Below, piece after piece: positions 404 through 33,000 of a stretch of 64,000 nt of DNA. Under the pieces are notes generated by a model, which did no database searches, was not told the DNA's origin, and saw only the letters and a list, made by a program, of their open reading frames with translations. A program made the position numbers and the translations under genes. The stretch comes from Cyanophora paradoxa CCMP329 (taxonomy: Eukaryota > Plantae > Glaucophyta): contig QPMI01000415.1 in assembly GCA_004431415.1 (NCBI GenBank), forward strand, positions 124,001 through 188,000, written 5' to 3'. Position 1 is the first letter of the stretch. Each line of letters begins with the position of its first letter.

Positions 404-460
404 ACTGGCACATCATGGCATGTAGCGTCCCTGCGGCGAGCCTCGGAGAATCGGAGACTA

Positions 461-1370: not shown

Positions 1371-1372
1371 GT

Positions 1373-2038: not shown

Positions 2039-2214
2039 CGCGCTTTTGGCGTAGTGGTATTAGGTCGTGCTACGACCTCCCGGATTTCCGGGTTCGGCTC
2101 CTGCTGTTTCCGCTTCGTTGTACTTCGAACCCTCGTGGTTCCCGATACTGTGACTTGTATCCTCGTTGTGTACTACGAGTGGGTACGCCCACCGTAGATT
2201 TTTATAAAAAAAAA
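2039..2214 (+). mobile_element. tRNA-derived SINE
   Basis: Pol III A box TGGCGTAGTGG (2047-2057). B-box-like GGTTCGGCTCC (2091-2101). Anticodon-arm-like hairpin AGGTC-GTGCTAC-GACCT. 3' hairpin GTGGG-TACG-CCCAC and an A-rich tail. Confidence 0.6.
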
Positions 2215-2725: not shown

Positions 2726-2800
2726 AGTCCTGACTCCTGACCCTCGGACTCCTGAGTCCTGAGTCCTGACTCCTGAGTCCTGACTCCTGACTCCTGAGCC
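2726..2800. repeat. 7-bp minisatellite (GA[C/G]TCCT)n, about 10 copies
   Basis: Read directly: agtcctgactcctga...gagtcctgactcctgactcctgagcct. Confidence 0.85.
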
Positions 2801-3089
2801 TAGTAGTATAGCTGTACCGGGTAGCCTAGCCCTAGTAGTAGCTACGTACACACTACCGGGGTAGGCAAAGCTGCTTAATCAAAAGCTAGAGGTGTGCTCC
2901 AAGCCTGCAGCGTGCTTGAAGAACGTATAAACAGGAAACAACGCTGTTGTTGCCAGACAGCTGTGCCCGCATGCACGGTGCACCGTCAGGATTGAACTGA
3001 CGTGGATGCGCTATAGCTAGCTGCAGCAGCGCATGCGTGGCGGCAGCAGTATCAATAGGTTCTCTTCCTTCAAATTCGAATTCGCCCCC

Positions 3090-6000
3090 ATGCATATGCA
3101 CACGTATAAGTATACGCCTTCCGGAACTCGAAGCTCAAGTGTCCGCTCCACCGGTTTGCTGCTTCTCGTGATGCTGTGCTTGGGGCTTCGAATTCGGGCA
3201 TCAGACGCGCGTGCGTACCATTGCATACGTACACATATGTATGCGCGTCGACGTGACCGTTAACGTTGGATCCGGATCCCGGACTTCGACAAGCGCAGAA
3301 TCTACAAGTAAGCCCCCTTCGTCAAAGCCTGCACAAGTCGTTCAGAGCGACGTGGCCACCACGAACGCTCCAAGTGGAATCAGCAAGGCGGCTGGCACAT
3401 TCTTTCGGACAGCGAACGGGAGCGCAGCTCTGCTGCTCGTCGGTTCAGCGTCTCATAACCAGATTTGGACGCTGGCTCAAAAGAACGCCAGCGCATTCGA
3501 ATGGACACAAAGGAACGAACTCGACGCAGGCATGAACATTATCACTGAAAACGTCACAAATCCAAGCGTCACATTGTCCGCCTGTGTGTGGTATGCGCAT
3601 CTACAGCCGGCGTGGCTGCTCTAGATCTGCACGTGCACCGACCGCGAATCGATCGCGATCGCGGTTTGCCGGCGCTCTGCGCCGAACTAATATAATTATA
3701 TACATATATATAACAGGGACGGGGGCAACAACGGCTACATCTACTGCTCAGGTGGAAAGATCAATAACAGCACAACGAACGTGAACTCCACGGACAAAGT
3801 TTGGCGGATGGGCAAGCTTCTAATCTTACATTGAAATGGCTGGCTTCAATCGCGAGCCGACGCTGTCCCTGCTTGCAGACACGACGCTGACCTCGATGAC
3901 GGTATTTGTGAACCCAATGCCAGCAAAAGTTCATGGTCATTGCATGGTTCGCGGCAAATGATCGCTCTGCGATTTCTGTACTGTAGCTAACCAGTACTTC
4001 ATTTCGATCTTGCAGGCTCTTCTCAACAATCAAACTCTGTTCGTGGCTTTCGGCTCCGGACCTGATGGGCCGCTCACAAAGCTCTACTGGTGGGCATGGA
4101 TATGTGCCGATGAGCTTGACTCTCCGTGATCTTTCTGACATCGATATCGATTGTCGCAGGTACGACGTGTCGCAGGGCGATCAGGGTTCCTGGAATGTTT
4201 GTGCGCTGAATATATATTAGACCGATTGCGAGGCTGATGAGTGATGACGGTACTAATATTAAATATCGATGACAGCCAATAGCACAGTTGCGGCGGGCCC
4301 GCGCGAAGGCGCTACGTGCAACCTATTTCGTGCGTTTGCTTTTCGATCTTCTGCGTGCACGTGGATACGGCGGCAATGCTCTGCGCTTCAGAGGGCAGGC
4401 TGTACGTGCTAGGCGGCAGGCGGCCGGAGATCAACGATAACGGAACAGTCACCAAGGCCTTCATGCTCCATGACCTCTGGGTGGCGGACCTCATGTCCGC
4501 CAGCAAAAGTTTCAGTCTGGTCGCATCGGACTTTGTGCTGGATTCCGTGGGAGCCGGCCTCGTCGGCTGCGGAGCCTGGCAGGTCCTCGTCCTCATGTGA
4601 GCTCTAGATCTCGCCATCCACGTGCTTTGTCGTTCGAAGGGCGAGACTTGAGCTTCAATTTTGTTCTAACGTGCAGGTCTCATAATGGTACCGGTGTCCG
4701 AGACATGCAGCAGGGCCCCATCATGCAATACCGGGTGCGCATTCAAGTCATAGAGCTCGAGTTTCCGATCGCGAACCGGAGTCACACCCCGGCACAGCTC
4801 GCATGGGGGTGAGCCCCACCAATTGTGCGACCTTCCCGCGACCATTTTCAATAAGCACATTTTCAGCATCACGAATCTCAGTCACAAAATCACAAATTCG
4901 CACTGAGCCACACTACATTTTTCAAACATCTAACCCCTCCTTACTGAAACCAATCACAAAAACCTACATATAATCTTTTCTCTAATTCCTTACCATTCCC
5001 AGTAAGCCCTTAAACCCTCCCTCGATTTCTCAGTAAGGACAGTAAGACCCCTATTTTTACGAAATGTTCCCGATCGTTTCCGGACTGTTTTCAGTTAGCC
5101 AAATTGAAAAATCAAGGTGAGCCCCACCAATTAAACAAGTGATCCCCACTTAAAGACTTCCCGATAATATACTGTAACAATGGCAAGCGATCAAGTAACT
5201 CTACCTGAGAGTAAGCAATGCAATGTATGCAACAAGGTAAAACCGGCATCGAGTTATACATTGCAAAAGGGTAGCTCAGGAAGTATACTTTTGAATTGGA
5301 GATGCAAAGTCTGCGAACGTGACTATCGCAATTACCTTTATCATTTCGTGTTAAAAACGCGTCCGAAAATCGAAGTGCAATCGAAGGTATGCTCGCACTG
5401 CAAGATTGAAAAGCCTGCAAGCGAGTATAATAAAAAACAAAGCACAAAGGATGGTCTCTACTATCAATGCCGAGAATGTTATAGTAAAACTCGTAAGAGT
5501 TAAAACCGAATTGCACTTTATCTATTCTTTTTAAAGCAAGTTTGTGCATGAGCAAGCATGCCGAAAATGCCCACCTGCACAAACTCGCGACTTCAATCGA
5601 AATGTTCCATTTAATGCACTGGAACCACTCGCGCCCCGCCCACTATGCAAGATACATGCAAACAACATGCGAGATACATATATAAATTGTTTTTCTCTTC
5701 CTATAATAAATGAAGACTCACTTTTACCATAAATATACCGGCAACAAGTATAATGAAATGGATACGATCTATCCATATATCGATTTAGAAGGAATTAATA
5801 AAGTTATAGAACCGTTTTGTGGTTCAGGTGCTTGTAGTTTCTATCTTTGGGAAAAGCATAAAGACCGGTTTGATTATTATATGAATGATAACGACGAAAC
5901 CCATACCCTTTTTTTGAATACAATGAAAGACCCAGACAATAAAGTTAAACTCTTAGAGAGTCTTAAACAGTTCGAAGCAGTAAGCAATATAGAAGAGCAT

Positions 6001-9000
6001 AAAGAAGTCTATAAGAAGTTTCTACAACATGATCGTAAAGATGCAATGGATTACTTAGCTCACCATTTCTATCTTCTTAAAAACAGCGTTTTAAATGTTA
6101 AAACCCTCCGTGATTTCAAAAAACGAAACGTGAAGGTGAGTCCATATACAACTCTTAAAAAGAAGATACCTTACGATGATTTTATTAAAGGAGCCAGCCT
6201 ATCCCATGGGGATTTTCGCGATATTGTAGCCAAATATAGAGATGATGAAGCGGCTTTTATATTTCTCGATCCTCCATACGTAAACAGCAATAATGACTTT
6301 TACGAAAATGTAGAATTCGATTTAGAAACCTTCTTTTTGGATTTGGAAGACCTATTTAAGACAGCGAAATGCAAGGTTATGATGGTTGTAAATGATGCTC
6401 TTTTAATGAAACTCCTATTTAAACCCTATATTCGCCATACGTATGGCAAAGTGTATGGTATAACAAAACGAAAAAGGAACCATATCATAATGACTAACTA
6501 TGAACTTGGTGAAAAATAACGACTCAGTCATATATATATTTCGTATATATGTCCGAACCTCCGTGTGTGTGATCCCGCACAACTTTGAATTTTTTGTGTT
6601 TTTTTTGTTTTTTTCGAAACCGCCACGCAAACCGACAAATCACTGCATCTCTTCACCAACTCATCGCCTTGCAAAACCAAAAATAGCGCCGTGACCGTCT
6701 TGACGAGGCTAACACGACCATGTAAGTATCATAGGGTCATTAAATATTTGTTTTATAATTAATAATGGATTCCCGATACCGCGGCTACCACGTTATGCTC
6801 GACTATATAACCGAGCCGTTTACTGAGTCCCCGGAGGCATGCGCCGAGTGGATCACAGCGAACCTATCGCAATATATCACAGATCGCAATATGCGCATCG
6901 TGCATCAGCACACTTGCATTTTCGATGGCTCTATTTCCCCTCCCGGTTTCGCGATTGGCTTTCTATTAGATGAGTCGCATGCCACAGCTCACTCTTATAG
7001 CGACCAGGGGCTATTAGCGATCGATATCTTTACATGCGGGTCAAATGCCGAAGCGAAGACAATGGGTATAGCACAGGACATTAACGATCTCATACAGGAA
7101 AGGCTGAAAGTGCGAAAGTGGGACTTACAGGTCGAGCAAAGGTTCCCAATTTCATAAAAAATGAAAAAAACGACAGATATATTTAATGCTCCTTGATCGG
7201 AAACTTGCCCATTAGCGGGTGATCGAGACCCATGACATACCAGGATTTCATAACGGGATCCCAGCGGGCTTTCTCAGCCTTCGCTTGATCCTTAAATTCA
7301 TAAGGAATATCGAGATAAACCTTCACGTTTCTTTGATACACTTGCTCATAGCTTAAAGTCTTGAACTGAGAGCATAGGGGGTGATCTTTCTGTGTCACAT
7401 ACCAGCAAGAATTCTCGGGATCCCACTTTCCACCGAGGGATTTCGCAACGTTCTTTTTATCATAGGGAATATCAACATAATGCTTTTCACCCTCCATCTC
7501 TTTTATATTTACCGGAGAAAATAATTTCGGGGTTTGTTATGAACGAGATGACCGAAGAATGCGCGTAGTAGGGGCTGTGTAGCTTGCGCTCTGATTCTTG
7601 AACGATTTATACCACCTCTGACTGTTTACCTCTGAGAGCTTCTCAGTTCCCGCGATCGTTAGTTTAGCGAGCTCTCTCAGCGCCCTCTTTGTCTTTTCTG
7701 CGCGATCTTCCAATAAAGCCCCTTTCGGAACACTTGCGGCGACATCTATGCCTTCCTTTTGAACCTGCCGGATCGAAGCTGCCTCTACATCAGCCGCTAA
7801 AATAGCGTTGCCTGATGGCTCCACCACAGCCTCGACCTCTGTAATGATTTGCAATTCGTGCGGCTTAAAAAGCTTCGGCATAACGTTCCCCGCTGCATCT
7901 TGCACCTCTATCGCGTTTCCTCTCCTTCCCGCAATTTTGTAGACCTCTCGGCTATACCTTTGAGTCGCCCCTTTATCGAATTTTGATCTCGGCAATAACA
8001 GGCGGACGTGGAGACCCGGCTTAAAGTCGCTGAATATATCCTTTACGATTGTGTTCTTCCTTGAAATAATAGCCGCTCGGATCCGCTCCATATCAGAAAG
8101 CTTAACATCTGCGGGTTTCATTCCTATGGTTCTGTGAATGGTGTTATTATAATTGAAAACGAAGTCGTCCAGCTTGTCCATAAACCGCACAGTATTATAT
8201 GCGACACAGTAATTGTTTATCATCGTTTTTAGGGTCAAATGAAAGCGATTCATTATTCCCAGCGAAGTGTGATCTCCGACCTGTTTAAAGCGGTGCTCTA
8301 TTCCATTGCTTTTAACGACCTCCTGAAACTCCTTCGCGATGAATTCTGAGCCGTTATCTGTCTCCAATCGAATCATCGGAGCCGGGAGCTCTGTAAGCAT
8401 CTCCGCAAAAGCGGCGGCAACACTTGCGCCCTCTTTGTTCTTTAACTTCTTGGCATATGCTTTTCGGCTTGTCATCTCGATGAGAGTAAGGACTGCAATG
8501 TAGCCGGAATTATAGCTGCCATATGAGAGATAAAAGATGAGATCGGCTTGGTAGCACCACGGCGGGGCTGTGATGGGAATAAAAGCTGTTTGGGTCGGTG
8601 CGGGGGCTTCTTGTTGATCTGCATAAATTCTTGTTTCGCTGCGACATCTTGCACTTCTTTTAATGTGAGGGTCTTGTCCTCTTTTCTCAGCTCTTCGTAT
8701 ATCGCGGACGGGTTCTTAAAACCTGTCTTCGGGTCATACATGCGTCGCACGATCTTAGAGGACGGGTTAGCAATGCTAAAAGGAACATCTCCTAATAAAT
8801 TTGATTTTGCTTGGCGTTTTGTGATTTTTTGGGGGACTTGCTCAGTTTCAGGAACCGCGATAGGTAGAATGGTGGTCTCCGTTTCCTCGCCCGCTACCCT
8901 TCTGACGATCCGTGACATTCTTCTAATTAACCCTGTTTATTTTTTGCTGCAATTGCACCCGTGATGCGCGAGTTGACAATTGTCTTTAAGATGTGGGCGC

Positions 9001-12000
9001 TTATTATTGATGCGATCCACGACGAGCCTATAATTCGGATCTTGCGGCTCAATCGGAATCGGAAGGGAACAGATCGCACAGGCGCCCTTCTGTTGCTTCT
9101 TGCGCTCTAATATCCACTCCGGCGTAATATAATCCGCTTCGTTGAAATCGCGCCCGGCACGCTGATCCTGGCATTTATATCCGCGGATCTTCGTTTTCAG
9201 ATATTCGATGTAGTCGCTCTTTCCTTGGAACTTGTGAATCGGTGTATAAATCAGCACAGTGGACAGATCGCGGTTACGAGTGAGAGCGGTATAGAACCAT
9301 TCGCGAGTGGTATAGCGGAACGTAGCCTCACAAATGACAATGCCCGAATCAAGTGTGAGACCTTGCGTTGAATGACCTGTTCCTGCATAAGGGAGAGAAA
9401 AATGTTCTAACATCGCGCACGGAACCTCGAACGTGACGCCATCGAAAACGTCAGTTAATGTGACCATTTGCTTGGTGATTTTGGTGATTCGATAGGTGTA
9501 ATTCGTGTATGCATTAATAGACTCACCCTCAGACCGCGAAATGCGTAGATACCTGCGACAAACGACCTCCAAACCCTTGTAGAATTTGATGCCGTTGACC
9601 TCTACGGTTGCAATATTTACTTTTCGTCTATCGTGCATCAGTTTGTTATAGGCTAAGGTCATTTCGTTTCTGTAAGCGATGCCAAAGTAGCCGTCGGGAA
9701 TGGCGCTTAGATCATTAATTGTCGGCAACCCGTATTTCGAGATAATCTGTGAGGCTTCGAGTCCGTTTTCGAAGAGATCCTCTTTAATCGCCCGAATTAA
9801 TTCACGGTCTGTCTCCTTCTTGTGCCGCTTGTTAATGCGTAGACTCAGGACGTTAGGGAACATGCTCTGCACAGCGCGCTTATAGTAGCCCTTGCGATCA
9901 GAAACCGATAGCTCATCATTAATCGGTTCGTTCTGATAGGTATCGCCATTAGCCAAATATTTGATATCCGGATAGCGATCGATAAACGACTTGATCTTAG
10001 CGAGATCTTTTACAGAATACGCGAATATCTCGTCGAACATAATGTGGCTGAACTCGGAGACAAACGCCCTCTGGTCTTTTTCGCTCATAGCCTCTTCGTA
10101 GGTCTGATCATTTGAGACACGGATCCCGAGAACATTATACAAAGTGCGAACGGTAATATTCTCGATTCCGCGGACTTTGAGAGAGTCCCTCAGCTCTGCG
10201 CACTGTTTGTTATAGGGGCAAATGACTAAGCAATTTGACTTTTGAGAGGCAAAGCAATTAATACCGAGGGTCGACTTTCCACTTCCGGGCATGTCAGCAA
10301 GGACAAGCATACGATTATGGAGCTCCGCAACCCAATTAAAGCACTCCGGATTAAATTCGTCCCTCAGCGAGAACCGGTTAATGAGTGTCTCGGGATCCTG
10401 AAATTCGAGAGTTACACCCCGTGGTGGGCGGAGTGCATTCTCAGGGCATCTTTTCCCGGGAATATAGCTGAATTTGCCCATGTTCTCAAACGCATTTCGG
10501 TCGAACTCTTTCTTACTTGTCCATGAACCTTCGATATATAGACAGTCCGTTCTGATCCCGGCAACCTTGTGCCCGCGCGCTGTCAGGCGCTTGTATTGCG
10601 CAAACATATTAGCACGGTTGCGATCGTAAATATGAAAGTGGATAGGAAGGAATCCGTTAACGAGCTCGCGGTGGGAGCTGATCTTAACGAAATAGATGTG
10701 ACCTTCGAATTCGCTAAGAGTTTTGACACGTTTCGAATTCTTAGGATTGAAAGTAAACACCTCTACTGTTCCTCCGCATTCTTGGGCGAACCTCTCAGCC
10801 TCGGCACGGTTGTAGAACATTTTCGTGGATGTTTGCGAGTCTTGGAATTTGCCGAGCATTCCGATCTCTTTCACTAAAATATGCTTCTTATCTGTGGTTT
10901 GAATGTCGCTTGACAGCACTTTTTGCATCTCAGCGATCGACGTATTGGGCACCAAATGCGAAGGCTCCGCGACCGCGATAATCTCTATCTTGTCCTTTAC
11001 GTCCGCCCAATGCATGGAGAGAGTGTAGCCTGTCATGAAATTATAACAGCGACCACTCACGGAAAATGCGCGATCCAGAATAATTTCGATTCCATCAATC
11101 TTGCGAGACATGGCGGCATCATAATCTATGTCCTCATCGTCGGCGAAAGTCGCTTGCTCTTTCTCAAACGCAACCACACGCACGTAGTAGATTGCGTATT
11201 CGAGAATATCGCTTCCCGCTTTAAAGGGAACGAAGTCATCGAATACATTGTATTTCGGAAGATATTGCATGCCTTTCAGTATCGAAGGGTAGCACTTCGC
11301 CATATCGACAGCTGTGTAGGTAGCTTTCGGGTTCGGCTTATAGAAATAGCCGCTTAGTGCGGATCGCTTGTAGTGCGTGAGAATTTCGCGCATGTTCGGG
11401 CTGTAATGTGAGATATTCGTGGTATTCAGTAGCGACTCCCGGAAACCCTTACCGATTTCACAGACCTTATTATAATACTCTTCTGTTTCGAAATCTTGCT
11501 CAATAAAGTGGTCGGTTGTGCGTGGATCTTTGATAGAGAACATCGAGCCATTAGCTTTGAATGTGATGCTGTCGATTTGTTTCGATGGCGTTAGCTTCAC
11601 AGCGGGCTCATATCGCATTTTCAGGAACGTAAATAGAAGACCTTCCAGACCTTCGCGCCCAGTATAAAGAATGCGGATGAAACTGCGCTCGTCGGGCGAT
11701 AGTTTAAGTTGCGTGATCTTTAACAAATCCTTGGATGTGTGCGCGAAGATATCGTGAGTAAGACACGTCGGAATTTTATAGAGTGCTAACGAAGAGGTCG
11801 ACTTAGGAACATGATTATCGAGCTCTTCGACCTCCATCTTCGCCATGCGCATTTCGAGCGACTTGATGTTATCGTTGAATATATAGATGTGCTTGTTGTG
11901 AATCATAAAGTGAATATTGCGGGGATTGATATTTTTGTTAATTGATTCCGCCGCGAATTTGTATACTAACTTTCCGTCGACATCAAAGACGCGGAAGCCT

Positions 12001-15000
12001 GTCTGGATTCTCTTACAGAATTTCTCGATGTGGCGGAGCGTGAGAGCCAGAGAGTCGCCAGGTGTGCGTTCACGACCGTGAAAGAATTTATAGAGACCGT
12101 CGTACGACATAGTTAAGTCAGTATATCGCGGTTTTGGCGCCTCCTGACACTTCTTAATGGACGCTCCCCATGTGGAGATGATCATATCGTAGCCGCAAGC
12201 GTTAGATGTCGATGATTTGGGAAGCTCAATAATATCTTCGAACTCAGACGCGTTTGGATTTAATGTGTAGTCTGTGAATTTGCTCATAATCGCGGTGCAT
12301 CGCATGCTGTCCATTAGCTCCTCATCCAGAAACGCATAGCGATTGCCAGGGATAGCACCGGCTCCGTCATCTTCGACACCTTCGTCCCCATCGATCACGA
12401 CCTCATGAACAGTTATAAAGGCATCATCGACACTGCCGCCAAAATCATCGAAACCTTTGCGTAGTTTTTTCTGTTCCTCGGTTGGTGGTGTCTTAAAGAA
12501 GAACATCTCGTATGCTTGTCCGAAAGTTCCCAGACGAATCTTCAATTCATCGTAGTTTTCGAGTAAATCGAAGATTGAATCTCTCTCTTCCGAATAATAA
12601 CGATTTTGAGCGGTGAGAATTCCATACACACTATCGATTTTTGCCAGAGCAAAGCTTCGCAACACACTCACCGAAACTGTCTCTCTTAGATTGCGGTAGG
12701 TGACAAAGGTTCTGTCTGGCATATTTGATTCGGGAATTCCGGGAATAACAATTACCTCCGACGACCGAGCACCGGATCCAGGTCCCCATAGCTTGAACGT
12801 AATTGTTGCGAGAGTTTCCGGATCATATTGGGCGATTGGATCGAGAATAATGCGTTTAATCGCATCCTCTACCGCTTTTAGTTTACCTCTCTGCTGCTTC
12901 GCTTCGAGTTTCGCTTCTTTCGCCCGTTTCTGTTCTCGTTTGCGATCGAAGCGCTGTAAACGCTTCGCCTCTTGTTCTTTTTGCTTTTGCTTTTCTATAT
13001 TAACTTGGGTGCGAGCGGCGCGCTTTTCTTTCCGCTCTGCCCTGCGGAAAACGCGGGGATTAATGATGCCATTCAGAGTATCCCGAATGTCGATCAGCGT
13101 TTGGAGCTTGGGCTTCCGATTCATTGTGTTGTGCATCGCCCAATGCGCCTGTTCTTCGGTTAGCAAATCCTGACTCAATCCCTGCATAATGTATCCGATA
13201 ATTTCATCCCGAACATTGTTAGCGATTCTGTTGGTTGCGCGCGGCATCTCTATTAGTTCTTTTAAAATAACCGGAGAAAATAATTTCGGCGCAATCTACC
13301 AAATTCTCCTTTTCATACCCTTGTCGCCAATTCTTTAAGTGCTTTTTGACCGATACGGGGAATAAAAAGGGAGGTAAAAAATTAATCATTTTTTGCATCG
13401 TGCGGATACTTTCCGCTACGAAGTTTTTGCGTTCTCGACGACATGCTTTCGGGGTCTTCCAGCGGGCTTTTGCGGCTGGGGCTTCACCGGCGGATTCAGC
13501 TTGCGTTCCGCTCTTTTCCTTCGTTGGTATTCACGTGCCTTCTCTCGGATTTTCTCCCGATACTCTTCATCGTCTTGGTATCGCTGCTGTTTACGAATTG
13601 CGATCTTTTGTAGCTGTTCCGGTGTGAATATAGTAGCCTCTCCGGCGGCTAATCGCTCTTGCTTTTGTCTCTGATGCTTGTTTCGCTGCCGCTCTGCATC
13701 TTTCTCGCGTTTTAGTCTTAATCTCTCCGCTTTCTCCTCTTCTGTGATCACCTTCTTCGGTCGCCCTGGTCTGCGCTTTTCTTGCTGTGCCGCCATTGCC
13801 TCTTGGTTTGAAATCTTGGGTTTCGCCATTTACTATAACCGGAGAAAATAGTTTTTTGTCACTCTGTATTATTTCCCTTGCCCTTATATACCTTTTACCG
13901 AAACCTTCAATTTTTGCCCTTGGCTCGATACAAGCGCCACCGAAATTCACCGCTCAATAACCGTTCCAGACGGTTCTTTCTTGTTGCTGAGGATATACAT
14001 AAGGTTGCTGAGGATAAACATAAGGGTTCGTTACATTTTCATCGTCGCCTAATGGCATTTGATCCAATCTATACATCGGATAAGGGGAGTCAGCGCGCAA
14101 ATGACCTTCTACAAATTCGGGACATGAGCGCCTTCTAATATGCTCTACATGCACGTCCTCTATCTGAGCGGTTTCGATATTAGAACTCATAGCCGCGGGC
14201 ACAGGCGAAGGCGATCGAGATCGTGGGTGGTTGTGATTGTCGCTGTGGTTAGAATATACAGAAAGGCGCCTACCTCCATTCTCGTCGTCAGAAATATTAA
14301 CCTCTACGGTTGTGTCGCAGCAAGAGTTGTGGCACGTGCTTGTGAAATGCAAATGAAACATTTCAATGCATTGTGTGATGAAATTCATCGACCCTACAAA
14401 TGGGCAACGTATTAAATATCGGAGAAAATAAAAGGGAATGAGGGCTTTACTTGCTCGTGTGTTCCCATACGAGTTAGTCGACCTTATAATGCTGTTTATG
14501 GAGCCGACCTGTCCCTTTTGCAGGGGAGTCCACATAAAGACCCGCTCTAAATACGGGCGGGTTCAGCTTTGCCTTGCGGATATTCACAGTCATTAGCGGA
14601 TATGGCGTTTACCACCGAGCATTGCCGCGAAATTCGCTGGTGCTGTCGGCACTATATGTGCATATTGCGGGGCAACCGATTGCTGACGAGTTACGGCTTG
14701 TGCATCTGTTTTTTCCTCCTTTTTAATCTCCTCTACGTCGACTTTTTGCTTTAATCCGAGTTTGGAGATCTCTTTCTTCACGAGCCCCTTTAATTTCTTG
14801 CGTTCGTTATAATCTTGCATCCATTTCTCGTAGTTTGACACTTTCATTTCAAGGTCTCGCACTTTCTCTTCAAAGCTCATGACAACGTCGACAGGAACCG
14901 TGTGTTTTTGATAGGATCCGCGCTTTTTGAGCTCAGTTTCGGCGGCTTTCGGGACGTCTTGCGTTTTGTGCTGGCTTGCGACAACTTGCGCTTTAATTAC

Positions 15001-21000: not shown

Positions 21001-24000
21001 TCGAGACCACGATAAGCTCCTCCTCGCAAGAGTTTCCGAATAAAGTGCGGGCGAATGTGTAGCCGCAAACCCGGGCGAATTATTTCCACTCATGCAACCA
21101 TCAATTAAACAGTATGTTCTTCCGGCGACTGTGACTTGTTTCGGCTCGAAATAGGTCGGAGCAGCCGAGGTAGCCCTTGCAGCATCGCGCACAAGCATCC
21201 CATTAATATCTTCATCATTGCTTGAAATAAAAACGGGGGACATTTGAACCGTGTCGAACGCAGTCACGATGGTGGGTTTATAGAGATCCGCCATAGTCGC
21301 TGAGCCGCAGAGTTCCAGAGCCACAGCTTCTAAATTCGTGGCTTCATACTTGGGGCGTTGCACAATCGATGTAAGCACTCGTGGATTCGCGAAAATCAGC
21401 GGTAGTTTCGCTTTGTAGAGCGCCAGAATATCAGTAGCAGTATATTTAGGGGCGCCATCGGTTCCCTTGATATTCAAAAGGAGCGCGATTAATCCACCTG
21501 TGGATGTTCCCGCAAAGCAGTCGAATAGCTGTTGGATTCGTTTACCGGTTTGGGCTTCAATCTGTGCCAGTATAGCAGCCTCGATTATTCCACGCGACCC
21601 TCCACCACTCAGACATAAAACGGTCTTCATTATCTTATATACTTCTTATATATCTTCTTTGTTTATAAAGAGGATGTCGTTCCTGAATCCGCGACCAGAC
21701 GCACGAGTTATTAATTCGACCACTCAGATAGAGGACACTGATCAGGTAAACACTGAAATTCGCGGGTCTCTGAGAATAAATTACAATGCAGACCGCGAAG
21801 ATCCAGTCAGTGGGACACCGAGCAGACCCGCAGCTTTGCAGTTAATGAACGTCGAGAAAGGGGATCATAAACTTGGAATCGACTTTTTACTTGATGATAA
21901 CGAACGAAACAGAGTCGCCAGCATTCAGGCAACCCGCCAGCTACCGAAAACGGTGCGATATAATCGCAGGAACATCCCAAAAGCATTCGATAGAGGTCGC
22001 TTAAACTTCTTCATTCAAGATGAGAGCGGTTTCCAAAATGCAGCTATGAGAATCGTGGATAATAGCACACTTATAGCGGGAGTATCCACACGGAAAACAA
22101 AGGTAGAGGTCGTCCATGATCTCTCAGCAGGTAATCTAACGACGAGCAATATTACAGCAAGTAACATCACTACGGATACCCTAAATGTAAACTCGCTCAA
22201 CTCCGAGTCGTTTTTCGCCACCAATGTCGCAACCTGTAACCTAAACATCGAATCCTTTGTGATTCAGAAGAGCGAATCGGTTCCCCAGATAACAGAGGGT
22301 GTTTTCACATTAGACCCCGCGAAACCGACCTTAGAAATTGTCGAAAATGGGAACGTTGTCGATATAATTGGCGCCAATGCTCCGAATGTGAGATCCTTAG
22401 CACTTGATAAAACGACTATATCATTTGCAGAAGAAATTCCGGCTTTTACCACAGAGAAACAGGCACTGAGAACAGACCATGTTCACATAACCAGAGACAA
22501 TATAAACGATCTTTTAGGCAAGGACATCGTAAAGGCGTTTTTGGAGTTTGAAAGGAGCAAGAACACCAAAGATTCCAGCCAGGATGGAACCCTCACGACC
22601 CACACAACCGAAATCGCGGCTTTGCAATCAGAAATTAATGCTCTGTTTGCAGCAGATGGAGCGCTTGCAATAACCTTAGCCCATATTCTATCGAAAAGGA
22701 ACATATACCCCGCGACTGACAACACATACCGAGTTGGTTTATCGAATCTGAGATGGTCAGAGTTGCATGGAGTTTCCATGTTTGCCTCCAATTTAATCCT
22801 TCCATTTAATCACTCACTCCGACCCAATCAGATTCTCACCAGTGATAATGCACTGATCAGCTACACTGACTTTAATAGTAACCTTTCCCGATCAGTTTCG
22901 CGGACTGAGACCTACGAGGTCACAGGCTACCCGCAGAAATTCGCAGGTCTCGAAGTTTATGTAGTTTATGCAGACAGTCCAACATACACATTTACTTGGG
23001 ATCAATTGGGTGTCACAGGTTTCGAGACTTTACCTACGGTTACCTTGGTCGATCATACAGTTTACTTTAATCAAATCACTTTGACTGATGAATATAACAA
23101 GGCATATGTCCATAATATCACCTCCACAGGGTTTCAGGTTTTGTTCCAATATGTTGGAACAAATACTCTCATTATCCGGAACTCGTCACTGAACACCATA
23201 GCTAATCTGAGTTTCACTCTTACTGTCAATTATGTCACCCCTGTATTCGATAGCAAACCCAGAGTAAAGGTTTACCGAGATTTACAAGGTAGCAATATCG
23301 TGCCCTTCTCACAGAGTTTCGATCTTGGCGCGAACTCTTTAAGGTGGAACACAGTTTATTCTTTGAGTGCAAACACCTGTAATATTGTAGTCGCAGGTTC
23401 ATCGGCTACTATTGGAGATCTGACCGCCCCTTTTAAAAAGGAGTATCTTAAAGAACTGTATATTACAAAGTCTGATTTACCAGATGCTATTTCGTTGGTG
23501 CTCTCCCCGACTCCCAGCATATCATACCACAATGTGAAAGACACAAGTAATGTAGTGCAGAGGGGAAGTAAAGTATTCCAGGCATCCGAGATAGGATCGG
23601 TCTCATATAGATATCTTGCAGGGGTTCCAGCGAATTTTAATTTCACATTTGAGACACCATTTGTTTCCCCTCCTACTATTGAAATAACAGACACGAATTT
23701 GTATGTGGTCAATGATGGGTCAGCTACATCACTTCAAAATGCACCAGCCGGCTACTCCCCATTTGTTGCAACTAACATAACAACCACCGGCTTCACACTT
23801 GTCGGAAATGCAACAGTGACATATGCTCTGACATCATACCCTGTTGGGTTGTATTTTGCGAAATTTAATCTCTCTGTTATCCCAGCAGTTTCCCTTTCTC
23901 CTCCCTTCACTGTGAGTTGGAAGGCAACAGGAACTATTCCGCGATTTGACCCCGAAGACCGATTAAAAATAAGGTATCCTCTCGATGTTACCGACATTCA

Positions 24001-27000
24001 TACTACGAGGATCAATGGGCAGAACTTCGTATTTAATGGAACCAATGCTACTCTGATCGATAATCGAGTAACGAATAATTACTTTTTCGATTCTCGATAC
24101 ATTAATACTTGCAACATTGTCATACATAAAACGTTTGAGGATCGCAGTAAGACCTTAACAGTCACCTTGCCCACTCACTCGAATGTCTCAGATGGATTTT
24201 ACTATTATCTGTTAAATCGCTATTACACCTCTTATATTCCATATCCTTCTGAGACTGTCAGCATGAGCTATCCCAAAGTCACCCTAACATCGACCAATGC
24301 TGACTTCTTTGGATCCACAGACTTCATGAGAGACTTCTTTTATTTTACATCCTCCACAGATGGTCTCTTAGTTTATTACTCTTACAGATATGAGTCTATT
24401 GCTACCCAAATTGACAGCCACCCAAACACAGATATCATCACAGCAGGCGATAAGAAATATATAAAAACCGCTTCCCCATGGGTTTGCACTGTAAGGCTCG
24501 ATGACAGATACACTCCTAACCTAAATAACATTGGATTGCACTCGACATGCAATATTTATGTGCAAGGTGCGATTTCGGCTACCAAATATTATGAGGGCGG
24601 AAATTGTGATACAGGACATAGGTTGCTATCGCGAAATGGACTCTTTGAGTCATTCAGTGGGACGGCTCTACCGCCCTTTATCAGGGACACAGTCTATGAT
24701 ACCACATGCAATATTTGGGTGTGTCGATCTGTGAGTAATCCGCCTGTGACACAGGAATTATATAAATATCTCTCAGATACCTATGGGGCAATCACAGGGT
24801 CTTCAACAGGAAATCCAGCGACGGCTCCCATCGTGTTTGCAAATGCATACACAGCGCCGACATCATTAGCAGGGTCGACAGAGCCGCCACCAAACGATCC
24901 CAATCCGAACCAGCCTAACCCAGATCCCGATTCAAAAGATCCCCCTACAACTGATCCACCTTACACTCCACCCACAACAAATAATCCCACTCCCATTGGG
25001 GCGCCGCAAGGAGGTGGTAATGGGATAGGTGGCTTGATTGGGATAATCTTGGGCGCGATTGCAGGTGCAGCTTTACTTGCTCTTATGTGGAAGTATCGTA
25101 GTTTATTCTTTGCATGTTGCTATAATGCAGGGGCAGCATACTCTACACCAGAAGTAGGTTTAACAGAGACACCTGATGGTGATTTAGGTGTAGAGATTTC
25201 CAGACCAGAGGGGAATTCTCTTAGTGTCATTAGAAATGGCAGGAGTCCACAGGATCGAGGAGCATTGAGATCAGGAGGAGACAGTGATTTTATGTCCGAA
25301 ATAGCACAGCGAGAAGGTAGGGTCTATGAGCATGTCCCCAATGTGATGTAAAATAAACCTTCTTATAATAGAAATGACAATCATATCCAATCCCACCTTT
25401 AATAATAAATACTATGTTACAGATCCAGAGATACCCTCGGCTCAAAATGATCTTATAGTTTCACACACCCCATACTTGGGAGAAGTCGTTAAAGATTCAT
25501 GGAATGATGTAACGGGGCATGAATTTGGGCATCTATACGATATTCAGAGTGGGATAGGCTATGTCGATGCATTAACAGGGACAGTTTTTCGCAATCTTAA
25601 CTGTAATTGCACGGGAGGGTGGCTGTTTCAGACATGCAGCAATGTCGCCTCTGATCTTGATCCCGCCGAATACATTACTACGGATTTATATGGTGGGAAA
25701 ACGATTTTCTCCATCACTTGCAATCTCGTAAATTCGGATGTGCCCATAATAGCACCTGTAATAGGTGCATCCAATATGTATATCCAAAGAAATCCGGTCG
25801 TGCATACAGGAGCTGAATTTATATTGGGCGACAACACCCCAATCAGTCGAATCGAACTACCCAATTCTCACAAGCATTTGTGGGAACATATCACCAATGC
25901 CCCATTAACCTATCCACCCAGTTCTCACGAGCATTTGTGGGAGCATATCACCAATCGACCATTAACCTTCCCACCTGATCCACACACTCATGATTACTTG
26001 TCTCTCAAAGGTGGTGTTATCTCATCTAATCTTACAATTTCATCAAACCTTACAGTTACAAGTAACATTTATGCCAGTAACATTTATGCCAGTAACATTT
26101 ACAGCAGTAACCTATGGGCAAGTAATATTAATGGAAGTAATGTAATAGTCGATTATCTCACTGTGAAGATTGAAGCAAACCTACCAAATCATCCGACATC
26201 GAATGTTGTTTTAGATTGGTTAGCAAAGCAAAAACACACAAAAGCAGATATTACAGATTTTGCCCATAATCACACAAAAGATCAAATAACAGATTTTGCC
26301 CATAAGCATTTATGGAGGATATCACAAATCCGCCCTCAACCTTCCACCAGGAAACATTCCCATGATTATTCAGAGATTACCAATAGTAACCACAGGCACC
26401 CATGGGAGGAAATAGATGAGCAGCCTACTTTCGCACAATTGAATGCAATCGGAAACGTTTTTAATGGAGTCACACTTTACCAATCCATTAATACACCTGA
26501 AAGGCTGTTTTTGAATGATCATTATGTTAGTCTGAATGGGTCGTTTACAGGTGAAACAGGCACACCTATGGTGGGAACTCTTGCAGTAAGATTACCACGG
26601 GATCCAATCGTAAACGGAGTGTATAGTGGCGATTTCAATGTAGGAGTAAATGATACTTTCCCCAGTATCTATGTTACGAATTATCACCCAGGAGAAATAG
26701 GACAAGAAGCGGATTTTTCAGCAGCAATTCAAGTAAATGTAACAGATCAAAGCGCATATGATGGAGCAAGACCTAAGATTGTGTTCACAAGGGAGAAAGT
26801 TGTAAACTATCTTCCTGTTGTGGGACAACCCACAGATGATCACGGTAAATGCGAGATTGCATGGATTAAAACAACATCAGGAGGCGCCTTAGAAGTCAAT
26901 CAAAGAATGGCGGCGAAAAACTTACACAATACAACCCTTTCAGGTGTGGTAACAGATGATTACCTCGAAAGCAAAAACTATGTAGATGATACAGAACTTG

Positions 27001-30000
27001 CAGCAATTCTTGAAGATTATGTAACAGATACCGAATTAACGTCGGCTCTTGGGAATTATTTACCTCTAACAGGTGGGACTCTTACAGGTGATGTGCATGC
27101 TCCAAATTTCTTTGTGGACACTCCGAATGATCAAACATTTCCTGTTGTCCACCTTGGTGCTGAATATGTTTTAGATCCAAACACCCCATTTAGTCGTCTT
27201 GAATTACCCAATGTTCACAAGCATTTTTGGGAGCATATTGTCAATCCCCCATCGACCTATCCACCTGATTCACACGATCATGATTATTTACCACTAACAG
27301 GTGGAACAATTGCAGGTGATGTGCATGCTTCTAATTTCTTTGTTACTACTCCGAATGATCAAACATTTCCTGTTGTCCACCTTGGTGCTGAATATGTATT
27401 AGATCCAAACACTCCAATTAGTCGCATTGAATTACCCAATGTTCACAATGTTCGACCATTAACCTTCGCACCTCATCTACACACTCACACAAAGTCAGAG
27501 ATTACAGATTTTTCACACACTCACACAAAGTCAGAAATAACAGATTTTGCCCATACCCACACAAAGTCTCAAATTACAGACTTCCCGACATTTGCGACTG
27601 TGGCAACAACTGGAAACTATGATGATCTGATAAATACACCAACATACACTTCACCAACTGATTTTGACGCTACAAGTGGTATTTCCACAGACCGCACAGG
27701 AGATTGGAGAGATTATTTTGGGCAACCACTTGTAGGTGACACAAGCACTTGGGCAAACACATGGATTGATGGTGATGATGATTGTAGTAGCTGTAAGATG
27801 TATTGGACTGTTCCAACAGACATGAAATCATGTTATATCTATTATACGTGTCAGTATGACAGTAGATACTTTGATGTTGTTGGAATTGAACCATCAAACA
27901 ATACTTATACTCGTTTACGAGTAAATGCCTATGCTCCTGGAATTAATCCTGTAAGAGATTTTAAACAGTTTGTTGCAATAAATTGTGAAGGACTTGTTAA
28001 AGTTGGTGTTCATGGACAAATAGGAAGAATTTATCTTCCAGGTCCGATTACTGTTGGTTGGAGCAAAAACCCCGCTATATCGTCACACAGTGGTTTCCTC
28101 CATTGGAATAATATATACGGGAAGCCAACAGCTTCTACGACTGTCGGTCCTCACTCTCATTTTAAAGCAGATATCACAGATTTCGCACATAGTCACACAA
28201 AGGCAAATATAACAGACTTCGCCCATACTCACACAAAATCGGAAATCACGGATTTTCCAACCTTAGACCCATTTGTAGCGAACACGATCACAGCAAATAA
28301 TACCATGTATGTGGGATCCGGTCAAATTTACCAACCAGATGCACCACTTTATTTAGAACAATGGTTTTTCCACAATTCCGCAAATATATACGATAAAACG
28401 TTATTATGTCGGGGAAATGCTTACGCAAGAGCATATTATGCAATGGATGAAACAGATAATACAAAGATCGCAAAACTTGTTTCAGAACAGCGTGTCAATA
28501 AAGACCAGTATATACAAACAGGGAAATTCTCAAAATCTTTGACAATCACAGGTCCGGGTCATTGGGGATTTCCACAGGTTGTCACATTCCCGAAAGCATT
28601 TGCGGAAGCCCCAGAAGTGGTTCTCAATCTGATACAAGGATATAATGGTGGTTCATATGTATTGGTATATGGTGTCACAAGTTCCACAACAACAACATTT
28701 ACTATTCATGCAACAATTTCGGCAGAACATGCATTCAATGAAAGCATTGGACTTTTCCACTATCAAATGAGTTATATAGCAACAGGGAAGATGGTAGCAT
28801 AATATTCTCACGTAATAATAATAATATTCTCACGTAATAATAAAGAACAATCAAAAGATGTCGACTGTGTTTACCCCTGTGTTTTCCTTATCAGCCAGTG
28901 CTGTCCACAACGTGCAACACACTATATATGATCTAAGTGAGTCATTCCCTTCGACTGAGACAGCGAAAACCGATTCTTTCAATGAGACCTCCATTCTCAG
29001 AGTCAAAGAACTCAGAGCTGACAAGGCTGGTGGAATCGTTAAAGCTACTGAACTGATCGTATCGAATCGACCCGCAATCTCTTCGGGGCTGGTCACCAAA
29101 GAAAATCTATATGAAGGTCAACAGGATTCCAAAACGGCTTTTAATCCGGCTGATAGGAATTCGGCGGCTTTTCAAGTTTACAGTGGCGGGGCATGGATAG
29201 GGACTGGACTGAGTGTGAATGGGAATGCGACGATTACTGGAAGCCTTACGGCTGGATCATTTGGGACAGTTAAAACGACCACTATTGATTCTGGGGCGAA
29301 CTCTGATTTGTTGATTAAACGAAATGGAGTTGCAATGGCGACAGTAACTTCAACAGGTTTGACAGTCAATAGTGGAACAAATATGGGTTATCTTTCTCTT
29401 CCAAATCATCCAAGTTTCATGGTTTATGGAGTTGCCTATTCAACAGGTAGCACAGCAACTACCTCATATGTCAACTATCCTACTGTGGCTTTTAATATTG
29501 GAAACAATTTCAGTGTAGCTTCTGGTGCAACCCCCGCAAGGTTTACAGCTCCTGTAAGCGGAATCTATCTATTTAAGTTTTCAGTTTATCCATCAACACC
29601 TGCTGGATCGTGGGCTATGTTCTTTCGTGTAAATGGAAGCACAAACTATTACAATCAGTCCATTCAGAATCAAGGCACCCTTGCTCATATGGAAGCGGTG
29701 CTTATGATAAAACTGAATGCAACAGATTACGTATCACCATTCCTAGGACATACAACAGGTGTTACGCAATTGACATATGAGTATAACTGTTTCCAAGGTG
29801 TTCTTCTTCATGCTACCTAAAAATTTAATCTCCTGTTCATTTAAAAGCCAAACAATGTCAACTACACTCTCGGTTGCAATTTCAAATGCTGAATTACTTG
29901 GACTCGAATACTGTGCTTACTCTGTTCAGGAATGGTTAGATAATGCTGTTCATAATAGGGCGAGAATCGCGATTGATGAGATTGTGGACAAAGAAGTTAA

Positions 30001-33000
30001 ATCGTGTATTTCCGCTGGAATTCCGATTCCACTCACAAAGGAAGCGATTGTAGAGCAAGCATTTAATCGGGGGACTGTTCGAAAGGCAAGCGAAATTCCT
30101 GTGAGCGCTCCTATGTAAAGAATTCGAATTCGAAGAATGAGAGAGGCGCAGCCAAGGCAGCTTGTCTGACGACTGGGTTTATTGTTATTTTTCATAGATC
30201 ATGCATAAGAAAGGCATGTATCTTGCATAGTGGGCGGGGCGCGAGTGGTTCCAGTGCATTAAATGGAACATTTCGATTGAAGTCGCGAGTTTGTGCAGGT
30301 GGGCATTTTCGGCATGCTTGCTCATGCACAAACTTGCTTTAAAAAGAATAGATAAAGTGCAATTCGGTTTTAACTCTTACGAGTTTTACTATAACATTCT
30401 CGGCATTGATAGTAGAGACCATCCTTTGTGCTTTGTTTTTTATTATACTCGCTTGCAGGCTTTTCAATCTTGCAGTGCGAGCATACCTTCGATTGCACTT
30501 CGATTTTCGGACGCGTTTTTAACACGAAATGATAAAGGTAATTGCGATAGTCACGTTCGCAGACTTTGCATCTCCAATTCAAAAGTATACTTCCTGAGCT
30601 ACCCTTTTGCAATGTATAACTCGATGCCGGTTTTACCTTGTTGCATACATTGCATTGCTTACTCTCAGGTAGAGTTACTTGATCGCTTGCCATTGTTACA
30701 GTATATTATCGGGAAGTCTTTAAGTGGGGATCACTTGTTTAATTGGTGGGGCTCACCTTGATTTTTCAATTTGGCTAACTGAAAACAGTCCGGAAACGAT
30801 CGGGAACATTTCGTAAAAATAGGGGTCTTACTGTCCTTACTGAGAAATCGAGGGAGGGTTTAAGGGCTTACTGGGAATGGTAAGGAATTAGAGAAAAGAT
30901 TATATGTAGGTTTTTGTGATTGGTTTCAGTAAGGAGGGGTTAGATGTTTGAAAAATGTAGTGTGGCTCAGTGCGAATTTGTGATTTTGTGACTGAGATTC
31001 GTGATGCTGAAAATGTGCTTATTGAAAATGGTCGCGGGAAGGTCGCACAATTGGTGGGGCTCACCCCCATGCGAGCGGCACAAGTGACACGGATGCAGTT
31101 TTTCGACGAGGCGGGCGACGGGTACATCATTTCGAGCCCTTGGGAGTACTCGGGTGCGCATATGCTTGCATGGCCTTGCTTCTATGCGCCCTTTTCGGAT
31201 CGCCACGCGCACGTCCCCCTTTTTCTTTTATTTTTCCCACTTCGCTTCGGCGATTTCAGAAGCGCTGCATGCCCGCTCCGCCCTCCCGATCCCCCTCCGT
31301 CGTCCCCGTCCTTTTTTAGCAGGCTCCTCCACCCTACTTTTACGCCTTGTTGCAGGCTCCCACATTGGAACGTACGACAACACGTGGATTAGCGAGCCAA
31401 ACAGTGAAAACTGCACTATGTGTGAAATCTTACTTCAAGGCTTGAAACGCCACTTTCTTCTCTAGCTCTGATCATTACATTTCGCACGCAAATCAGGTAC
31501 TCGGTGGGGGGAGTCGGTCTCTGGAAAGACCGCCGCGCGGTCAACACTACAGCCGAGCACGCAAGCGTCTTCCAATACCAGGGTGGGCTATTGCGTGCAC
31601 GTTGCGCGCCCGATCGCAGTCTAGTTCCCCTGTTGACGGCTCTGGCAGCGTTCGACGCCGTCTTTCCTTACCGTTCAAAGAAAGAGCTTCAGATCACCAA
31701 CGTGAATGCGACACTGCAGACGGTGTACTCCGCAGGCGCTCTGATGAAGACGGAAGCAGGCGACCTGCGATACTTTGTCATCGGCGGTGAGTAAAACCAG
31801 AGTGGCCCTTGAGGCCGAGGCACGCGGACTGAAAACAATATTAATATTAATGCTATCGTTCGCTTCGTGGCGACCAGGCGGCGAGAACTATAACTACTAC
31901 AGAGTCTACCTTCCAAGCGTAAGGAAAAGGTCCGAAAATTGAATGGTCGCCCTTTCTATATGTAAAGACCGGCCGCAAGGTAATACGAAAACTTAGTCGT
32001 TTTCTGCAGCGATGCGATCACGATGGTCGACCTCGCGACGGGTCGCTGGTTTGACTCGGGCGTCCGCACGCCGAAGCCCGCGCACCGCATCACGTGCACG
32101 AACAGTGAGACCGAGATCTTTTGCTACGGTGGCGTCGGACAGGATCCGAAGCTCTGGATTCTGTACAGCGATGTCCGCAAACGCTTGTTCCTGATAGGAG
32201 TACATGATGTCCATAGTGACATGCGGTCCTGCGCGCAGTACTGGAAGCTCACTTTCGATCCGGCTACTGGGGATCTGGCGCCGGACGTGACGATGATAAG
32301 CCTGTCGAACGGGCCCGGGACGCGGTACCTTACCTCGATGACGTACTACGAAGGGGACGTGTACATGTTCGGGGGCGTGTCGGGCAAAATCGAGACTCGC
32401 GATGGACCGGACGGTACTCTGGACCTGTGGAGGTGCCTAGGCGCATGGCGAGGGTCGCTAGGCCTAGGGCTGATCATGGAGCGCTGCAGGTTGCCGACTG
32501 GCGATGGATCAGCGACACAGTTGATCAATGATGCGCAAGGGAGAACGCAGATCTACAAAGGCGAGACAAGAACATACTATGGCAGATGCGAAATGATGCA
32601 AGCTCGCTCGGGGTCAAAGTGGTGCGAGTTGTGCATTTTGCGATGAGCTCCATAAACTGGTCCAACCGTGATCAGGGTTTTCTTTGGCGGTTCTGACATC
32701 CTTACGGAGGGCTTTGGTGGTGCGGGAGATGTACATATATAGAGCAATAATTCAGCCGCTGTAAACTTCTACATACTTCTATATTCAACACTTGCATCAG
32801 ATCTCTTCTACATCGATCTGTCGGCGCCGGACGACAGTATGCAAATCGTTCTCATCAAGAGGTCCCTCCAAAGCATCGCGTTCTCCGTCGGCTACGGCTT
32901 TGCGTGCGGAAGCAAGGTCATATTCGGCGGTCTGGCGTTTTTCGGCTCAGCGAATCAATCTCGAGCTATATTCGAAGGAAATTTGAAGAGGATGCCTTAT

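What the first reader, a model, noticed from the sequence alone, without database searches (positions are those of the whole stretch)
4797..31076. Complete, apparently young endogenous Polinton-like virus with an unusual gene set
Seen: matching 863-bp TIRs, perfect 6-bp TSD, about 19 intronless ORFs covering integration, replication, packaging, capsid and attachment. Established: canonical Polintons and virophages carry an adenovirus-type cysteine protease; many PLVs lack it. I see no such protease and no gap large enough to hold one. Inference: a protease-less, rve-integrating PLV lineage that may still be reactivatable, possibly dependent on a giant virus.
Basis: partly seen in the sequence, partly recalled or inferred. 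Interest (0 to 1): 0.8.

Follow-up and report, generated by a model that had tools for sequence, protein, structure and literature searches.

The report
Algal provirus purged of restriction sites
A 26-kb virus integrated in the genome of what is likely the alga Cyanophora paradoxa has lost almost every copy of five short palindromic DNA words of the kind that DNA-cutting enzymes recognise, which likely records a life spent copying itself in cells co-infected by a still-unknown giant virus.

Summary
Confirmed: 863-bp identical TIRs, 6-bp TSD, 19 distinct genes, a double jelly-roll capsid protein, two pentons, A32 ATPase, rve integrase, pPolB-SF1-helicase fusion, no adenain-type protease. Read depth suggests about 25-30 similar copies. 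The gene set is not unusual: most PLVs lack that protease, the capsid family is already listed for Cyanophora paradoxa (PMC10120064 supplement), and the replicase likely carries its own vOTU protease. Four genes have single-base breaks here, probably assembly errors. What stands out: GTAC, CTNNAG, CTAG, GGCC and GGNCC occur 7 times against about 257 expected, with a sharp edge at both TIRs; the four surviving GGNCC are all forced Gly-Pro codon pairs. Upstream regions resemble the mimivirus late promoter. Best reading: a giant-virus-dependent PLV shaped by restriction-type nucleases met during co-infection (0.6). The enzyme's owner is not shown, and sister-copy variants do not confirm ongoing purging. 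Four paper searches found no report of such avoidance in PLVs; this scan noted it before in another small virus (e1-10191871).

The parts
4791..4796 (.). left target-site duplication GGCACA
4797..5659 (+). left TIR, 863 bp; the element starts 5'-GCTCGC
5180..5503 (+). 107-aa zinc-finger-like ORF inside the TIR (mirror copy 30370-30693, minus strand); absent from some sister TIRs
   Evidence: PHROG 5558 E 3e-13; joints 5099/5110 to 5559
5710..6519 (+). Dam-like D12 adenine methyltransferase, optional cassette
   Evidence: PF02086 E 6e-16; joints 5673 to 6512-6524, depth 4-8x flank
6765..7157 (+). S-adenosylmethionine decarboxylase
   Evidence: PF02675 E 1e-11; TIGR03330
7183..7497 (-). DUF5710 tandem-domain protein
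   Evidence: PF18974 E 7e-24
7537..8918 (-). rve integrase, one gene broken by a one-base frameshift near 8601; catalytic D, D and Asn in place of Glu
   Evidence: PF00665 E 1e-13
8937..13247 (-). 1436-aa replicase: pPolB palm motifs A/B/C (residues 646, 787, 898), SF1 helicase (Walker A 985), C-terminal EndoVII/HNH
   Evidence: architecture as in PMC11161782 section 9
11868..12230 (-). likely vOTU cysteine-protease domain in the replicase (Cys351, His453); inferred
   Evidence: motif positions; helix-helix-helix then four strands in a low-confidence model; fold and sequence searches gave nothing
13416..13829 (-). 137-aa basic coiled-coil protein with AT-hook-like motifs
   Evidence: weak
13954..14535 (-). 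unknown ORF (193 aa; likely true start 14388, 144 aa)
14593..15276 (-). unknown 227-aa low-complexity ORF
15289..16143 (-). A32-like packaging ATPase
   Evidence: PF04665 E 2e-10
16194..16910 (-). HNH-AP2 homing endonuclease, optional cassette
   Evidence: joint 16189 to 16974, depth 5-8x flank
16983..18296 (-). major capsid protein, double jelly-roll
   Evidence: Foldseek PBCV-1 capsid E 6.8e-15; VIA Z 16.4, rmsd 8.9, 299 aligned
18355..19269 (-). penton 1 (one-base break near 18411 alters the last residues)
19286..20131 (+). penton 2
   Evidence: paralog of penton 1, E 5e-6; pair profile hits PBCV-1 chain P1, E 8.3e-6
20138..21630 (-). patatin-like phospholipase with a C-terminal extra domain (discoidin-like by recall, not confirmed), one gene broken near 21069
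   Evidence: PF01734 E 7e-23; C-terminal part no hit
21674..25351 (+). 1225-aa fibre-like protein, weak H-lectin hit, hydrophobic segment at 1118-1138
25374..28802 (+). 1142-aa fibre with phage-tail repeats (HxHxxxxITDF) and weak C-terminal H-lectin hit
28858..29820 (+). C1q-domain protein, variable among copies
   Evidence: PF00386 E 8e-8; depth 1-3x flank
29855..30118 (+). small unknown ORF (87 aa; 113 aa from 29777)
7511..7523 (-). promoter-like motif TATTTTCTCCGGT (also 13270-13282, 13838-13850, and 14418-14430 with one mismatch), part of a mimivirus-late-promoter-like element
4797..31076 (.). element-wide purge of GTAC, CTNNAG, CTAG, GGCC, GGNCC (7 sites in 26,280 bp)
30214..31076 (-). 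right TIR
31077..31082 (.). right target-site duplication GGCACA

Best explanation
This is an integrated Polinton-like virus with a double jelly-roll capsid whose 26-kb genome almost lacks five palindromic DNA words, and it likely lives as a parasite of a giant virus whose restriction-type nucleases likely drove that loss. Shown: the insertion (TIRs, TSD), the virion module, the replicase domains, the five-word purge and its sharp edges at the TIRs. Inferred: an rve integrase made the insertion; the provirus sits silent until a giant virus infects the cell; the giant virus's late transcription machinery then reads the AT-rich W8-TCT-N4-W5-RTAKA-like promoters; the pPolB-helicase copies the linear genome by protein priming, a vOTU domain likely cutting off the terminal protein; the ATPase fills capsids that mature without an adenain; fibres bind the next cell and the patatin lipase helps entry. 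Because the free genome is unmethylated at those words, copies without sites would survive; an optional Dam-like methylase would cover a further site.
For: Whole element 2, 0, 1, 0, 4 sites versus order-2 Markov means 55, 77, 39, 39, 48. With proteins and codon usage held fixed (100 shuffles, 23,376 coding bases, 1000 motifs) GTAC, CTNNAG, CTAG, GGCC rank 1-4 (z -8.9 to -6.9) and GGNCC is 4 vs 29. Of 6421 words expected 12 or more times, 35 fall under 0.2 of expectation and all 35 contain one of the five. All 4 GGNCC are Gly-Pro codon pairs; Gly-Pro occurs 4 times vs 20.8 expected, Pro-Gly 16 vs 20.8. Host flanks hold 104 sites in 4.8 kb and 175 in 7.9 kb, dropping to 0 at the TIRs, so the pressure does not act on host nuclear DNA; host methylation is CpG-only (PMC12344493, passages). 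CTAG and CTNNAG are methylated by the algal giant virus AaV (PMC12700378, passages); GTAC is the target of M.CviQI (PMC3287169, passages; chlorovirus origin recalled). The Megamimivirinae late motif (PMC11464507, passage) matches 2, 4, 12 of 20 upstream regions at 1, 2, 3 mismatches vs 0.17, 1.3, 5.7 under an AT-position-preserving null (P 0.012, 0.025, 0 of 1000); reverse-complement control 0, 0, 3. Gezel-14T is a precedent for a PLV using giant-virus promoters (10.1101/2022.07.28.501842, passages).
Against: No helper virus or nuclease was found. AaV's methylases have no associated endonuclease, and Jeudy et al. found no support for R-M acting against virophages in Acanthamoeba mimiviruses (PMC7253447, passages). 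Of 77 sister-copy variants (the best-supported rows shown, of about 900 listed), 3 create a site against 4.1 expected, so ongoing purging among copies is not shown. No source was found for GGCC or GGNCC in giant viruses. The promoter test uses start sites I chose, only 2 of 20 reach the paper's one-mismatch bar, and the early AAAATTGA motif occurs once. No control set of other PLVs could be fetched (9 scans empty). The vOTU fold is unconfirmed (pLDDT 37).
Confidence: 0.6

Rival explanations
1. The purge is self-protection against restriction enzymes carried by this virus's own kin (sister PLVs or mriyavirus-like elements of the same host), used in competition or against giant viruses.
For: The host carries hundreds of viral insertions (366 MCP genes in two clusters, PMC10120064 Table S4); nucleases and methylases are common in these viruses and R-M systems were proposed (10.64898/2026.10.13.758929, passage); cassettes come and go between copies; an unchecked note describes a Polinton family avoiding its own enzyme's site (e1-8573668).
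Against: No restriction-enzyme hit among 10 proteins in PADLOC or 21 in Pfam; five separate words need several enzymes; an integrated element expressing such enzymes in the nucleus would cut the site-rich host DNA.
Confidence: 0.2
2. The words are lost for a reason other than cutting: methylation at these words by a co-infecting virus blocks or mutates the PLV genome, or the bias is inherited from an older niche and the virus may now be autonomous.
For: Many giant-virus methylases are orphans. Sister-copy variants regain GTAC and CTAG at about the neutral rate.
Against: Deamination products are barely raised (GGTC/GACC 142 vs 119, z 2.3); loss to zero and the Gly-Pro deficit fit strong selection; recently mobile cassettes (methylase, HNH) are site-free too (small counts).
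Confidence: 0.15
3. On viability (independent of the above): this copy is a dead provirus whose six one-base losses are real.
For: Four genes are broken as assembled, and the integrase has Asn at the third catalytic position. Contigs drop rare variants, so they cannot clear this copy.
Against: All six are one-base losses at or beside homopolymer runs and three fall within 40 bp; the TIRs are identical over 863 bp; CpG is not eroded (O/E 1.12); a sister MCP in the published assembly also runs out of frame. This pattern fits long-read errors in a repeat.
Confidence: 0.25

Closest known systems
Cyanophora paradoxa endogenous viruses in Bellas et al. 2023 (PMC10120064; passages and supplement Tables S2, S4 rows seen)
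   Same: Two listed MCPs are near-identical to this one by eye (about 8 differences in the first 240 residues), with HHpred capsid hits at 92-97%.
   Different: In what I saw only MCPs were counted, in clusters marked 'new'; no element anatomy, promoter or word avoidance. The supplement file was cut when stored.
Glaucophyte PLVs in Bulzu et al. 2025 (PMC12220804; passages, supplement search)
   Same: Discoidin-patatin fusion, phage-tail-repeat plus H-lectin fibre, reduced morphogenetic module, Dam-like methylases proposed as protection from giant-virus nucleases.
   Different: No site-avoidance analysis in the passages seen; no per-element table for this host found in the held supplements.
Tlr1-type PLVs with rve integrase and pPolB-S1H fusion (PMC11161782; passages and section 9)
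   Same: rve integrase, palm lacking the first Asp of motif C, SF1 helicase, C-terminal HNH, Cys/His pair before the palm.
   Different: Divergent MCP with only 5 relatives at E 0.001 or better among 1.84 billion representatives; two pentons; site purge not described.
Gezel-14T / PgVV (10.1101/2022.07.28.501842; passages)
   Same: PLV with fibre and lipase in the virion, dependent on a giant virus for transcription.
   Different: Tyrosine recombinase, TVpol-SF3 helicase, early AAAATTGA promoter; here rve, pPolB-SF1 and a late-like motif.
Restriction-site avoidance in phages (PMC6286503; abstract and passages)
   Same: Near-complete loss of orthodox Type II palindromes.
   Different: There the enzymes belong to a prokaryotic host, and eukaryotic viruses served as the negative control.

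Membership tests
Polinton-like viruses (broad sense) | [quoted passage not shown] | tested here: met
Polinton-like viruses (broad sense) | penton (minor capsid protein) | tested here: met
   two paralogs; profile hits PBCV-1 P1, E 8.3e-6; not folded
Polinton-like viruses (broad sense) | A32-like packaging ATPase | tested here: met
   PF04665 E 2e-10
Polinton-like viruses (broad sense) | 14-40 kb, TIRs, integrase and short TSD | tested here: met
   26,280 bp
Aquintoviricetes versus Nucleocytoviricota-related PLV groups | placement in MCP/ATPase phylogeny | not testable with these tools
   5 MCP and 1 ATPase relatives only; reference PLV sets not available; Atlas neighbours are NCLDV-type capsid clusters, a lead only
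Tlr1-type pPolB-S1H replicase | palm motifs, SF1 helicase, C-terminal homing endonuclease | tested here: met
   (palm by motif only)
Tlr1-type pPolB-S1H replicase | vOTU domain with catalytic Cys and His | tested here: inconclusive
   Cys351/His453 and matching secondary-structure order, but model pLDDT 37 and no search hit
Polintoviricetes (Mavericks, Gosseviruses) | adenain/Ulp1-type maturation protease | tested here: not met
   no hit; motif screen; no gap over 252 bp; a very divergent enzyme in an unannotated ORF is not fully excluded
Polintoviricetes (Mavericks, Gosseviruses) | rve integrase | tested here: met
Virophages (Virophaviricetes) | maturation protease | tested here: not met
   as above
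Virophages (Virophaviricetes) | virophage-type MCP | tested here: inconclusive
   fold closer to PBCV-1 (Z 16.4) than mavirus (10.4) or Sputnik (8.6), medium-quality model
Virophage lifestyle | replication depends on a giant virus | not testable with these tools
   indirect only:
Mriyaviricetes / Zoravirus group | HUH endonuclease, VLTF2/3, Mriya48 | tested here: inconclusive
   no HUH or VLTF hit in Pfam; no Mriya48 profile at hand; features

The most novel reading that the evidence does not exclude
The element is a virophage-like parasite whose genome is a negative print of the restriction arsenal of an undiscovered glaucophyte giant virus: five target words and a mimivirus-type late promoter can be read off the parasite. 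This would be genomic evidence that giant-virus restriction systems police their parasites, and word avoidance could be used to match PLVs to helper viruses.
Probability: 0.45. Interest if true: 0.75.

Novelty: new variant of a known kind. Interest (0 to 1): 0.55.

Why it matters
Whether giant viruses use restriction-modification against virophages has been proposed but was not supported in the one methylome survey I read (PMC7253447). A PLV that removed five palindromes, even at the cost of Gly-Pro dipeptides, makes this testable in a culturable alga: it predicts the methylome and late promoter of the helper virus and offers a sequence-only way to link the many orphan PLVs to their giant viruses. 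The element itself, as a protease-lacking PLV, is ordinary.

Tried and rejected
No whole genome is held for this window, so copies could not be counted directly. Related loci: 0 in 7 scans of viral contigs and 0 in 2 of metagenome contigs; no match in the phage collection; so no phylogeny, synteny or avoidance control on other PLVs. vOTU: no homologues, single-sequence model poor, fold searches matched only a coiled coil or noise, no PDB sequence hit. Patatin C-terminal domain: no hit. No RNA holder listed; guessed-RNA runs gave only scattered low-depth pieces over genes, which is no evidence on expression. Junction contigs run 30 and 28 bases into the TIRs without a difference, just under the tool's 31-base bar for a bridge. 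No Rfam hit in 1-40000. No stable terminal hairpin (z -0.74), unlike other elements noted in this genome; one 10-bp hairpin in the element. No sixth purged word (AAAATT 5 vs 24.5 is borderline). Flank exons did not identify the host. Paper searches for avoidance in virophages/PLVs: 0 papers each; 1 unrelated. bioRxiv supplements were not seen; the HMM set of 10.64898/2026.06.19.733378 may already name this MCP group (its main text does not mention Cyanophora).
Full report
Observation. The element spans 4797-31076 (26,280 bp). Its arms are 863 nt and 100% complementary, flanked by the 6-bp duplication GGCACA. GC is 44% against 51% on the left and 58-66% on the right. Single-copy short-read contigs run 30 bases into the left TIR (three runs) and 28 into the right (one run) without a difference, which fits real junctions but is just under the tool's bar for a bridge. 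There are 19 distinct genes.

Gene content. The 16983-18296 product, modelled with five relatives (pLDDT 63.6), matches PBCV-1 and iridovirus major capsid proteins (Foldseek E 6.8e-15; VIA Z 16.4, rmsd 8.9, 299 aligned; BFVD agrees). Two paralogous genes give a profile whose only PDB hit is PBCV-1 chain P1 (E 8.3e-6); that P1 is the penton is recalled. Pfam, PHROGs and NCBIfam identify an A32 ATPase, rve integrase, Dam-like methylase, SAM decarboxylase, DUF5710, HNH-AP2 endonuclease, patatin, C1q and fibre repeats. The 1436-aa protein has pPolB palm motifs, with motif C lacking its first Asp, then an SF1 helicase and an EndoVII/HNH tail. This is the pPolB-S1H architecture of PMC11161782 (passages and section 9), where a vOTU protease precedes the palm in all PLVs analysed. 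Here Cys351 and His453 sit at the start of a helix and in the fourth strand of a matching element order, but the model is poor (pLDDT 37) and no search confirmed it. No adenain-type protease was found.

Host and prior record. A relative at 37% identity is named as a Cyanophora paradoxa protein, and Table S2 of PMC10120064 lists two C. paradoxa MCPs that are near-identical to this one by eye; Table S4 counts 366 MCP genes in two clusters marked new. PMC12220804 notes patatin-discoidin and tail-repeat-H-lectin fusions in glaucophyte PLVs and calls the reduced morphogenetic module typical of Aquintoviricetes (passages). 10.64898/2026.06.19.733378 (parts 1-3 of 5 read) names Gosseviruses as the only major PLV group with the protease. 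An Oxyrrhis PLV also lacks it (PMC12721341, abstract and first half of Results). So the gene set is known and the family is at least catalogued.

Copies and intactness. Seventeen of 24 listed runs hold half or more of the sampled words. Long core contigs have 22-36 times the depth of the flank contig in five runs; the tool warns that depth is no copy number, so about 25-30 similar copies is an inference. The methylase and HNH genes are at 4-8 times and are skipped by joints, and the C1q region is at 1-3 times: the family is mosaic. Six places in four genes are one base shorter than the contigs, all at or beside homopolymers. Assembly error is the likelier cause, but contigs cannot clear this copy. 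The integrase has Asn where HTLV-2 integrase has its catalytic Glu.

The unexpected feature. The element holds GTAC 2, CTNNAG 0, CTAG 1, GGCC 0 and GGNCC 4 times, against order-2 Markov means of 55, 77, 39, 39 and 48. With protein sequence and codon usage fixed, four of these rank first to fourth of 1000 motifs and GGNCC is 4 against 29. In a wider screen all 35 strongly depleted words of 6421 contain one of the five. GATC, CATG, TGCA, TCGA, AGCT, CTNAG and GANTC are not depleted. All four surviving GGNCC are Gly-Pro codon pairs, which cannot be removed silently, and Gly-Pro itself is 4 against 20.8 expected while Pro-Gly is 16. The flanks carry 13-28 sites per kb over the kilobases of 1-5000 and 31001-39000, and the count falls to zero at the TIRs. 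Against this: 3 of 77 sister-copy variants create a site versus 4.1 expected; these 77 are the best-supported rows of about 900, scored on this copy's background, so the test is weak but gives no support for ongoing purging.

Whose enzymes. Near-complete loss of palindromes is the mark of Type II restriction in phages (PMC6286503, abstract and passages). The host DNA is rich in these words and is methylated at CpG only (PMC12344493, passages), so the pressure likely acts outside the nucleus. The element has no recognisable restriction enzyme. The algal giant virus AaV methylates CTAG and CTNNAG, though its methylases are orphans (PMC12700378, passages); M.CviQI targets GTAC (PMC3287169, passages); PBCV-1 has full restriction systems (PMC7248222, passages). 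Independently, a repeated upstream motif turns out to resemble the Megamimivirinae late promoter (PMC11464507, passage): 2, 4 and 12 of 20 upstream regions match at 1, 2 and 3 mismatches against 0.17, 1.3 and 5.7 under a null that keeps AT positions. This was tested after seeing the motif and on starts I chose. Together these favour a giant-virus-dependent life, as in Gezel-14T (passages). PMC7253447 (passages) reports no support for restriction acting on virophages in Acanthamoeba systems.

Novelty and verdict. Four paper searches found no report of site avoidance in PLVs or virophages; the library lacks most subscription papers and bioRxiv supplements were not seen. This scan noted the same kind of purge in a small marine virus (e1-10191871, unchecked), which I saw after making the measurement. 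The element is a known kind of virus; the five-word purge with a late-promoter-like motif is a new variant that makes an open question testable. Interest 0.55; the helper-nuclease mechanism 0.6.

Noticed in passing
window 4917-5605 and 30268-30956: Guessed-RNA runs hold high-depth contigs (200-437) that match parts of the TIR at about 90% and skip the zinc-finger ORF: a sister TIR type may be strongly transcribed or be a short derivative element.
   Followed up: no
window 8248-8250: The integrase has Asn at the position of the catalytic Glu of retroviral integrases; whether this is a family trait or a lesion is open.
   Followed up: partly
window 4797-4802 and 31071-31076: Ends read 5'-GC...GC-3', not the AG...CT of canonical Polintons (recalled), and form no stable terminal hairpin.
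   Followed up: partly
window 6765-7157: SAM decarboxylase beside an optional methylase in a 26-kb virus; could serve polyamine supply or drain the methyl donor of competing methylases (speculation).
   Followed up: no
window 21674-29820: Three attachment-type genes with very uneven depth and many joints among copies, suggesting repeat-driven shuffling; fibre 1 ends in a Pro-rich linker and a hydrophobic segment.
   Followed up: partly
window 14438-14596: Small plus-strand ORF (52 aa, CxxC) divergent from the 144-aa ORF; some copies replace 14443-14537.
   Followed up: no
window 216-651 and 1309-1344: Five 36-nt direct repeats and a 48-nt inverted pair in the left flank, possibly the end of another mobile element.
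   Followed up: no
window 54241-54732 and 39831-40034: A 41-nt tandem array and a 102-nt tandem duplication in host DNA.
   Followed up: no
window 31984-32643: Host ORF piece with weak Kelch-repeat hits about 0.9 kb from the insertion.
   Followed up: no
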